NCBI RefSeq assembly: GCF_029227855.1
Contig: NZ_CP074356.1
Length of the DNA stretch: 64,000 nucleotides
Origin: Escherichia coli
GTDB lineage: Bacteria; Pseudomonadota; Gammaproteobacteria; Enterobacterales; Enterobacteriaceae
Reading direction: 5' to 3' (one strand)
The notes below the pieces were generated by a model. The model did not search any database and was not told the origin of the DNA. It was given only the letters and a program-made list of their open reading frames with translations. Of this stretch, positions 58,797 to 60,013 are shown in pieces; the first letter of the stretch is position 1, and every line of letters begins with the position of its first letter. A program made the position numbers and the translations under genes.

Positions 58797-60013
<1,217 letters not shown>

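What the first reader, a model, noticed from the sequence alone, without database searches (positions are those of the whole stretch)
58797..58811. atpI start codon ambiguity (GTG 58797 versus ATG 58809)
An in-frame GTG with a ggag SD lies 4 codons upstream of the first ATG. The promoter -10 at 58712-58717 sits about 73 bp upstream of the GTG, which fits the leader length usually described for the atp operon (stated from memory). The choice affects the predicted N-terminus by 4 residues.
Basis: partly seen in the sequence, partly recalled or inferred. Interest (0 to 1): 0.15.

Follow-up and report, generated by a model that had tools for sequence, protein, structure and literature searches.

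The report
Known atpI start-codon annotation ambiguity
The first gene of the E. coli ATP synthase operon (atpI) has three closely spaced possible start codons, but comparison across 80 related species and the curated annotation agree on the ATG, so this is an ordinary annotation detail that was already recognised.

Summary
The window is the E. coli mnmG-rsmG-atpIBEFHAG region. Three details need correcting.
- The nearest GGAG (58794-58797) overlaps the GTG itself. The GGAG that could serve the GTG is 58788-58791.
- A third in-frame candidate, GTG 58806, was missed.
- The -10 hexamer lies 80-85 nt upstream of the GTG, not 73. The figure of 73 nt fits an inferred transcription start near 58724.

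Across 81 Enterobacteriaceae sequences the ATG is present in 80. The upstream GTG occurs only in Escherichia and two other sequences; its third base is G in 7% of distinct sequences. The AGGAG-to-ATG spacer varies from 6 to 12 nt, which breaks the frame. Nineteen sequences have an in-frame stop within 24 nt upstream of the ATG.

RefSeq and the K-12 record annotate the 126-aa ATG form. A 2007 paper already listed atpI with this same +4-codon alternative against an N-terminally sequenced reference set. Sequence-only predictors favour a GUG, and 126-, 127- and 130-aa versions all sit in public databases, so the annotation inconsistency is real. It is resolved in favour of ATG 58809. Low interest; already known.

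The parts
58649..58828 (+). Block of high cross-genus conservation covering the promoter-upstream region, promoter, 5' leader and first codons of atpI
   Evidence: mean identity to the window is 0.81-0.97 per 20-nt bin here, against 0.35-0.88 in the rest of the rsmG-atpI spacer. One search gives the per-base profile over 76 distinct sequences.
58690..58717 (+). Sigma-70-type promoter of the atp operon: -35 TTGAAA (58690-58695), 16-nt spacer, -10 TATAAT (58712-58717)
   Evidence: 11 of 12 consensus matches and the only hit in 58190-59250; both hexamers are at least 95% conserved. Function is inferred from consensus and conservation; no transcript data were available.
58724..58808 (+). Inferred 5' untranslated leader, with the transcript start inferred about 7 nt after the -10
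   Evidence: Geometry only: 58724 to GTG 58797 is 73 nt and to ATG 58809 is 85 nt. The published 73-bp figure is recalled from memory and was not verified (searches found nothing).
58785..58791 (+). Distal SD-like motif AAGGGAG, 5 nt upstream of GTG 58797
   Evidence: anti-SD duplex of -7.6 kcal/mol; 88-100% conserved, including in genera that lack the GTG, so its conservation is not explained by serving that codon.
58793..58797 (+). Proximal Shine-Dalgarno AGGAG, 11 nt before ATG 58809 and 8 nt before GTG 58806; its last G is the first base of GTG 58797
   Evidence: 99-100% conserved; anti-SD duplex of -6.9 kcal/mol; the GGAG-to-ATG spacer is 6-12 nt across 81 sequences.
58797..58799 (+). Upstream in-frame GTG (130-aa form), judged not to be the principal start
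   Evidence: an in-frame start at -12 occurs in only 5 of 81 sequences (window, E. whittamii, E. albertii, L081, L044); the third base is G in 7% of distinct sequences; it is out of frame in one E. coli isolate.
58806..58808 (+).
   Evidence: present in 52 of 81 sequences and replaced by non-start codons in the rest; the 127-aa form is on at least 1000 contigs in public collections.
58809..59189 (+). atpI coding sequence from the conserved ATG (126 aa plus stop)
   Evidence: RefSeq/PGAP and K-12 NP_418195.2 annotate 381 nt. NCBIfam NF005962 model position 1 aligns to this Met. ATG in 80 of 81 sequences; this is the EcoGene N-terminally verified site.
59198..60013 (+). atpB, the next gene of the operon (context)

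Best explanation
atpI, the first and very weakly translated gene of the E. coli atp operon, is translated from ATG 58809. The conserved AGGAG at 58793-58797 serves as its Shine-Dalgarno sequence, at a rather long 11-nt spacing. GTG 58797 is not a conserved start. Its G and T belong to the conserved AGGAGU motif, and its third base happens to be G in the genus Escherichia. The four codons between it and the ATG (MKNV) are untranslated spacer. GTG 58806 is a frequent but dispensable neighbour of the ATG.

Shown here: the conservation pattern, the annotation state and the SD energetics. Inferred: which codon the ribosome actually uses in E. coli. That rests on second-hand citation of N-terminal sequencing and on comparative logic.
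For: -: across 81 Enterobacteriaceae sequences the aligned start is ATG in 80 and GTG in 1. An in-frame start at -12 exists in only 5. 23 have no upstream in-frame start codon at all. 19 have an in-frame stop within 24 nt upstream, 5 of them within 12 nt. The GGAG-to-ATG spacer takes the values 6, 8, 9, 10, 11 and 12 nt, so the frame upstream of the ATG is not maintained.
- base 58799 is G in 7% of distinct sequences, while 58797-58798 are 93-99% conserved as part of AGGAGT and the ATG is 99-100% conserved.
- PGAP and the curated K-12 record (NP_418195, version 2) annotate the 381-nt form.
- the NCBIfam equivalog NF005962 begins at the ATG Met.
- one E. coli genome has a 1-nt deletion in the A5 run, which puts GTG 58797 out of frame (GTG AAA ACG TGA). 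Its annotated AtpI is unchanged.
Against: - On sequence alone the GTG looks at least as good. AAGGGAG (-7.6 kcal/mol) lies at an ideal 4-5 nt from GTG 58797, against CAGGAG (-6.9 kcal/mol) at 10-11 nt from the ATG.
- A Bayesian start-site predictor gave the upstream site P = 0.851 against 0.099 for the ATG.
- I could not read the primary N-terminal sequencing papers.
- No initiation-site profiling table held here lists atpI.
- Conservation shows the ancestral, shared start. It cannot exclude some extra initiation at a GUG specifically in Escherichia.
- The single-isolate deletion could be a homopolymer sequencing error.
Confidence: 0.85

Rival explanations
1. Dual or multiple initiation in Escherichia. 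The ATG gives the main 126-aa protein, and ribosomes recruited by the distal AAGGGAG also start at GTG 58797, and/or ribosomes on AGGAG start at GTG 58806. This would yield minor 130- or 127-aa proteoforms, or a decoy initiation that lowers atpI output.
For: - Each candidate has an SD-like motif at usable spacing.
- Two sequence-based models favour a GUG.
- PMC1805508 explicitly proposed atpI as a candidate multi-start gene.
- GTG 58797 is kept in three Escherichia species and in 5,396 of 5,424 E. coli genomes over the 81-nt region.
- atpI ribosome density is very low, 0.20 against 6.2 for atpB.
Against: - The GTG is absent in 76 of 81 sequences, so any such proteoform is lineage-specific and dispensable.
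- Within-E. coli invariance is uninformative, because the whole region is invariant.
- No isoform data were found.
- The distal SD-like motif is conserved equally in genera without the GTG.
Confidence: 0.1
2. GTG 58797 is the true principal start, and the protein is the 130-aa form as first deduced from the DNA sequence.
For: It has the best SD strength and spacing. Predictor P = 0.851. The 130-aa form is on 569 contigs in public collections.
Against: - The codon is not conserved outside Escherichia, with frame shifts and in-frame stops in relatives.
- Curated annotation was revised away from it (protein version 2).
- The N-terminally verified reference set places the start 4 codons downstream.
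Confidence: 0.03
3. GTG 58806 is the principal start (127 aa, MMSVSL...). It uses AGGAG at a near-optimal 8-nt spacing.
For: Its spacing is better than that of the ATG. The codon is present in 52 of 81 sequences. The 127-aa form is called on at least 1000 contigs.
Against: - It is replaced by non-start codons (GTC, GCC, GTT, GTA, ACG, ATT, CTT) in 29 sequences, while the ATG stays.
- The predicted probability of being unpaired is the lowest of the candidates, 0.08.
- The curated and verified start is the ATG.
Confidence: 0.02

Closest known systems
E. coli K-12 atpI (uncI), b3739, NP_418195.2 / UniRef ATPZ_ECOLI, 126 aa
   Same: This is the same gene. The 701-nt region is 100% identical to many E. 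coli genomes and at least 99% identical in 5,409 of the 5,424 matching genomes. It has the same operon position, upstream of atpB, and the same 126-aa product from ATG 58809.
   Different: Nothing differs. The finding concerns only which start codon to annotate.
atpI as a 'candidate multi-TIS gene' in Hon-yaku (Makita et al. 2007, PMC1805508, Table 6)
   Same: It is the same +4-codon alternative: the predicted site scored P = 0.851 and the EcoGene-verified site 0.099.
   Different: That paper left dual use open on the strength of prediction scores. The cross-species comparison here argues that the upstream site is not conserved.
General class: N-terminal extension mis-annotations caused by in-frame NTG codons near the true start
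   Same: An in-frame GTG with an SD-like motif lies a few codons upstream. Different pipelines give different calls: 126, 127 and 130 aa all circulate.
   Different: Here the alternative GTG overlaps the real SD, which explains why two of its three bases are conserved.

Membership tests
AtpI / ATP synthase protein I (Pfam PF03899; NCBIfam NF005962 equivalog) | Profile match above the curated cut-off | tested here: met
   PF03899 at 57.3 bits against a cut-off of 25.1. NF005962 at 220 bits against a cut-off of 135, with model positions 1-126 aligned to residues 5-130 of the 130-aa translation.
AtpI / ATP synthase protein I (Pfam PF03899; NCBIfam NF005962 equivalog) | First gene of the atp operon, directly upstream of atpB | tested here: met
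   the order is rsmG, a 616-nt spacer, atpI, atpB, atpE, atpF, atpH, atpA, atpG.
Sigma-70 promoter of the atp operon (atpIp) | -35 and -10 hexamers at 16-18 nt spacing, conserved in relatives | tested here: met
   TTGAAA-16-TATAAT, 11 of 12 matches; both hexamers and their flanks are at least 87-97% conserved across genera.
Sigma-70 promoter of the atp operon (atpIp) | Mapped transcript 5' end 73 nt before the originally proposed GTG | not testable with these tools
   No transcript data are available. The primary papers are not held. Only the geometry is consistent: 58724 to 58797 is 73 nt.
Genes with two functional in-frame starts (dual-TIS / N-terminal proteoforms) | Both start codons conserved in relatives | tested here: not met
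   the ATG is present in 80 of 81 sequences and the upstream GTG in 5 of 81; the third base is G in 7%.
Genes with two functional in-frame starts (dual-TIS / N-terminal proteoforms) | Each start has its own ribosome-binding motif at workable spacing | tested here: met
   AAGGGAG lies 4-5 nt before GTG 58797. CAGGAG lies 8 nt before GTG 58806 and 10-11 nt before the ATG.
Genes with two functional in-frame starts (dual-TIS / N-terminal proteoforms) | Two protein isoforms or two initiation peaks observed | not testable with these tools
   No held supplement lists atpI.

The most novel reading that the evidence does not exclude
In the genus Escherichia, a single base change (A or T to G at 58799) created a GUG inside the conserved SD region. 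Ribosomes loaded on the distal AAGGGAG motif might use it. That would give either a minor 130-aa AtpI proteoform or a competing initiation that helps keep atpI translation very low. This would act alongside conserved leader-to-coding RNA pairings around the initiation region.
Probability: 0.08. Interest if true: 0.2.

Novelty: already known. Interest (0 to 1): 0.05.

Why it matters
It matters little. AtpI is a low-abundance, non-essential accessory protein, and four N-terminal residues are at stake. The practical value is for annotation hygiene. Three N-terminal versions of the same E. coli protein (126, 127 and 130 aa) are present in public databases, and sequence-only start predictors are misled here because the alternative GTG overlaps the real Shine-Dalgarno sequence. 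The case is a useful small example of cross-genus comparison resolving a start site that SD strength and spacing alone would get wrong.

Tried and rejected
**Literature**
- I looked for the primary uncI start-codon work. From memory this is Schneppe, Deckers-Hebestreit, McCarthy and Altendorf, J Biol Chem, 1990 and 1991. Searches found nothing usable, and one search failed on a term-length error.
- PMC178391 (Kasimoglu 1996) and the Mol Cell version of the retapamulin paper are not held.
- A search for the '73 bp' leader statement returned only plant papers.

**Initiation-site and N-terminomics datasets**
- No mention of atpI or b3739 in the held text of: the Ribo-RET preprint (no supplements held), TRAINSPOTTER, INRI-seq, Salmonella riboproteogenomics, TetRP and the ribosome-signature TIS paper.
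- These are absences in partial text, not negative results.
- The AUGUG/GUGUG paper does not discuss atpI.

**RNA**
- Rfam gave no credible family on the leader. The only hit was a Plasmodium RUF1 match at E = 0.2, far below its gathering score and outside the leader.
- I tested two candidate helices around the initiation region. Both are about 97% preserved but have essentially no compensatory changes, so neither is proven.
- One run used a mis-registered structure through my own off-by-one error and should be ignored.

**Within-species variation**
- The 81-nt region is identical in 5,396 of 5,424 E. coli genomes, so this is uninformative apart from one indel variant.

Full report
**What the window is.** The region is the Escherichia coli mnmG-rsmG-atpIBEFHAG segment. 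A 701-nt query around the finding matches 5,424 of 5,426 complete E. coli genomes, and many of these matches are 100% identical. The ORF list gives rsmG ending at 58192, a 616-nt spacer, an ORF at 58797-59189, and then atpB, atpE, atpF, atpH, atpA and atpG. The ORF product matches Pfam PF03899 (ATP synthase I chain). It also matches the NCBIfam equivalog NF005962 well above its cut-off.

**Checking the observation.** The sequence reads ...CGAAGGGAGCAGGAGTGAAAAACGTGATGTCTGTG....
- GTG 58797-58799 and ATG 58809-58811 are in frame, four codons apart, as stated.
- TATAAT is at 58712-58717, with TTGAAA 16 nt upstream. This is the only promoter-like match in 58190-59250.

Three details need correcting.
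- There are two GGAG motifs. The proximal one (58794-58797) shares its last G with the GTG, so it cannot be that codon's SD. It lies 8 nt before a second in-frame GTG (58806) and 11 nt before the ATG. The distal one (58788-58791, within AAGGGAG) lies 5 nt before GTG 58797.
- The -10 hexamer is 80-85 nt, not about 73 nt, from the GTG. A 73-nt leader fits a transcript start about 7 nt after the -10, near 58724. I could not verify the published number, because the old J. Bacteriol. papers are not held.

An in-frame alternative start a few codons upstream is not unusual.
- Simple arithmetic gives about 17% for four codons.
- Only 62.6% of N-terminally verified E. coli genes use the first possible start of their ORF (PMC1805508).

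**How public annotation treats it.** PGAP-annotated E. coli genomes and the curated K-12 record annotate a 381-nt gene, which is the 126-aa form starting at ATG 58809. The K-12 protein accession is at version 2. Position 1 of the NCBIfam model aligns with that methionine. Even so, exact-sequence look-up shows all three versions in public collections:
- 126 aa, on at least 1000 contigs;
- 127 aa, from GTG 58806, on at least 1000 contigs;
- 130 aa, from GTG 58797, on 569 contigs.

**Comparative test.** I fetched 80 loci from different Enterobacteriaceae species, each aligned so that residue 1 of the 126-aa form is at a fixed position. I examined the DNA directly.
- The aligned start codon is ATG in 80 of 81 sequences, counting the window. 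One sequence (L029) has GTG there.
- An in-frame start codon at -12 exists in only five: the window, E. whittamii, E. albertii, Intestinirhabdus alba (L081) and L044.
- Base 58799 is G in only 7% of 76 distinct sequences; most genera have GGAGTA or GGAGTT. Bases 58797-58798 are 93-99% conserved, because they belong to the invariant AGGAGT.
- The spacer between GGAG and the ATG takes the values 6, 8, 9, 10, 11 and 12 nt, so the reading frame upstream of the ATG is not preserved.
- 19 sequences have an in-frame stop within 24 nt upstream, and 5 of these are within 12 nt.
- 23 sequences have no upstream in-frame start codon at all.
- GTG 58806 is more persistent (52 of 81) but is replaced by non-start codons in the rest.

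The ATG is thus the only start codon under consistent selection. The four 'codons' MKNV behave as untranslated spacer.

Within E. coli the 81-nt region is identical in 5,396 of 5,424 genomes, which says nothing either way. One isolate (NZ_OZ039653.1) has A4 instead of A5 between the two codons. This puts GTG 58797 into the frame GTG AAA ACG TGA, while the annotated AtpI stays the same. It is a single case and may be a homopolymer sequencing error.

**Why predictors are misled.** Anti-SD duplex energies are -7.6 kcal/mol for AAGGGAG at 4-5 nt from GTG 58797. They are -6.9 kcal/mol for CAGGAG, at 10-11 nt from the ATG and 5-8 nt from GTG 58806. On SD strength and spacing alone the upstream GTG looks best. 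The literature held here says the same.
- The Hon-yaku Bayesian predictor gave the +4-codon site P = 0.851 and the reference site 0.099. It listed atpI among 'candidate multi-TIS' genes (PMC1805508).
[quoted passage not shown] This is second-hand evidence that the sequenced N-terminus corresponds to the ATG. From memory, the primary work is by Schneppe, Deckers-Hebestreit, McCarthy and Altendorf (J Biol Chem, 1990 and 1991). I could not read it, so that attribution is unverified.

**Direct initiation-site data.** None of the held supplements from retapamulin, Onc112, tetracycline, in-vitro or N-terminomics studies mentions atpI. This is unsurprising for a hydrophobic protein with very low ribosome density, 0.20 ribosomes per transcript against 6.2 for atpB. 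These are gaps, not negative results.

**Most likely mechanism.** The operon promoter at 58690-58717 produces a leader of about 85 nt. The 30S subunit pairs with the invariant AGGAG (58793-58797) and initiates at AUG 58809 at a long, sub-optimal spacing. This is consistent with the weak translation of atpI. GTG 58797 is an Escherichia-specific by-product of a variable base next to the SD. Some minor initiation at one of the GUGs in E. coli cannot be excluded with the data available. I give functional dual initiation about 10%, and either GUG as the principal start a few percent.

**Side observations.**
- Conservation across genera is low through most of the rsmG-atpI spacer (0.35-0.7, with short peaks up to 0.88). 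It rises to about 0.9 at 58649 and stays at 0.81-0.97 through the promoter, the leader and the first codons.
- The leader is more conserved than atpI codon positions 1 and 3.
- Synonymous sites in codons 3-5 (GTG TCG CT) are invariant in 40 species.
- Two mutually crossing helices can be drawn around the initiation region. One is 58772-58778 with 58815-58821, plus 58758-58762 with 58831-58835; this is the RNAalifold consensus. The other is an SD-sequestering helix, 58789-58797 with 58848-58856.
- Both are about 97% preserved, against 37-66% when the partner is slid. Both sides are nearly invariant and there are essentially no compensatory changes, so neither helix is demonstrated.
- No Rfam family matches the leader.

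**Verdict.** The ambiguity is real for predictors and databases, but it was already recognised in print and is resolved in curated annotation. The comparative evidence gathered here independently supports ATG 58809. Novelty: already known. Interest: very low.

Noticed in passing
window 58649-58828: The atp promoter, about 40 nt upstream of it, and the whole 5' leader form a block that is 81-97% conserved across Enterobacteriaceae genera. The rest of the 616-nt rsmG-atpI spacer is poorly conserved (0.35-0.7, with short peaks up to 0.88). The leader is more conserved than atpI codon positions 1 and 3.
   Followed up: partly
window 58758-58762 x 58831-58835 and 58772-58778 x 58815-58821; alternatively 58789-58797 x 58848-58856: Two crossing sets of leader-to-coding pairings enclose or sequester the SD and all candidate start codons. 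Each is about 97% preserved in 40 species but has essentially no compensatory changes. Synonymous sites of codons 3-5 are invariant. They might relate to the very low translation of atpI, but this is unproven.
   Followed up: partly
L083 (NZ_OZ039653.1 4855013-4855292), aligned to window 58800-58804: One complete E. coli genome has A4 instead of A5 between GTG 58797 and ATG 58809. This puts the upstream GTG out of frame, while the annotated AtpI is unchanged. It could be a real variant or a homopolymer sequencing error.
   Followed up: yes
L029 positions 1195-1203 (Enterobacteriaceae bacterium 89): This is the only one of 81 sequences in which the conserved start position is GTG rather than ATG (…AAACGTGGTGTCTGTG…). 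It shows that the position, not the ATG as such, is what is kept.
   Followed up: no
window 58785-58791: The distal SD-like motif AAGGGAG is 88-100% conserved even in genera with no start codon downstream of it at SD spacing. Its conservation needs another explanation, such as a standby site or an RNA structure.
   Followed up: no
protein collection, cluster of P0001: The 90%-identity cluster holding E. coli AtpI also lists 79-80-aa proteins named ATP synthase subunit C. One UniRef name for the 130-aa AtpI form is 'Glucose-inhibited division protein GidB'. Both look like clustering or naming artefacts in the databases.
   Followed up: no
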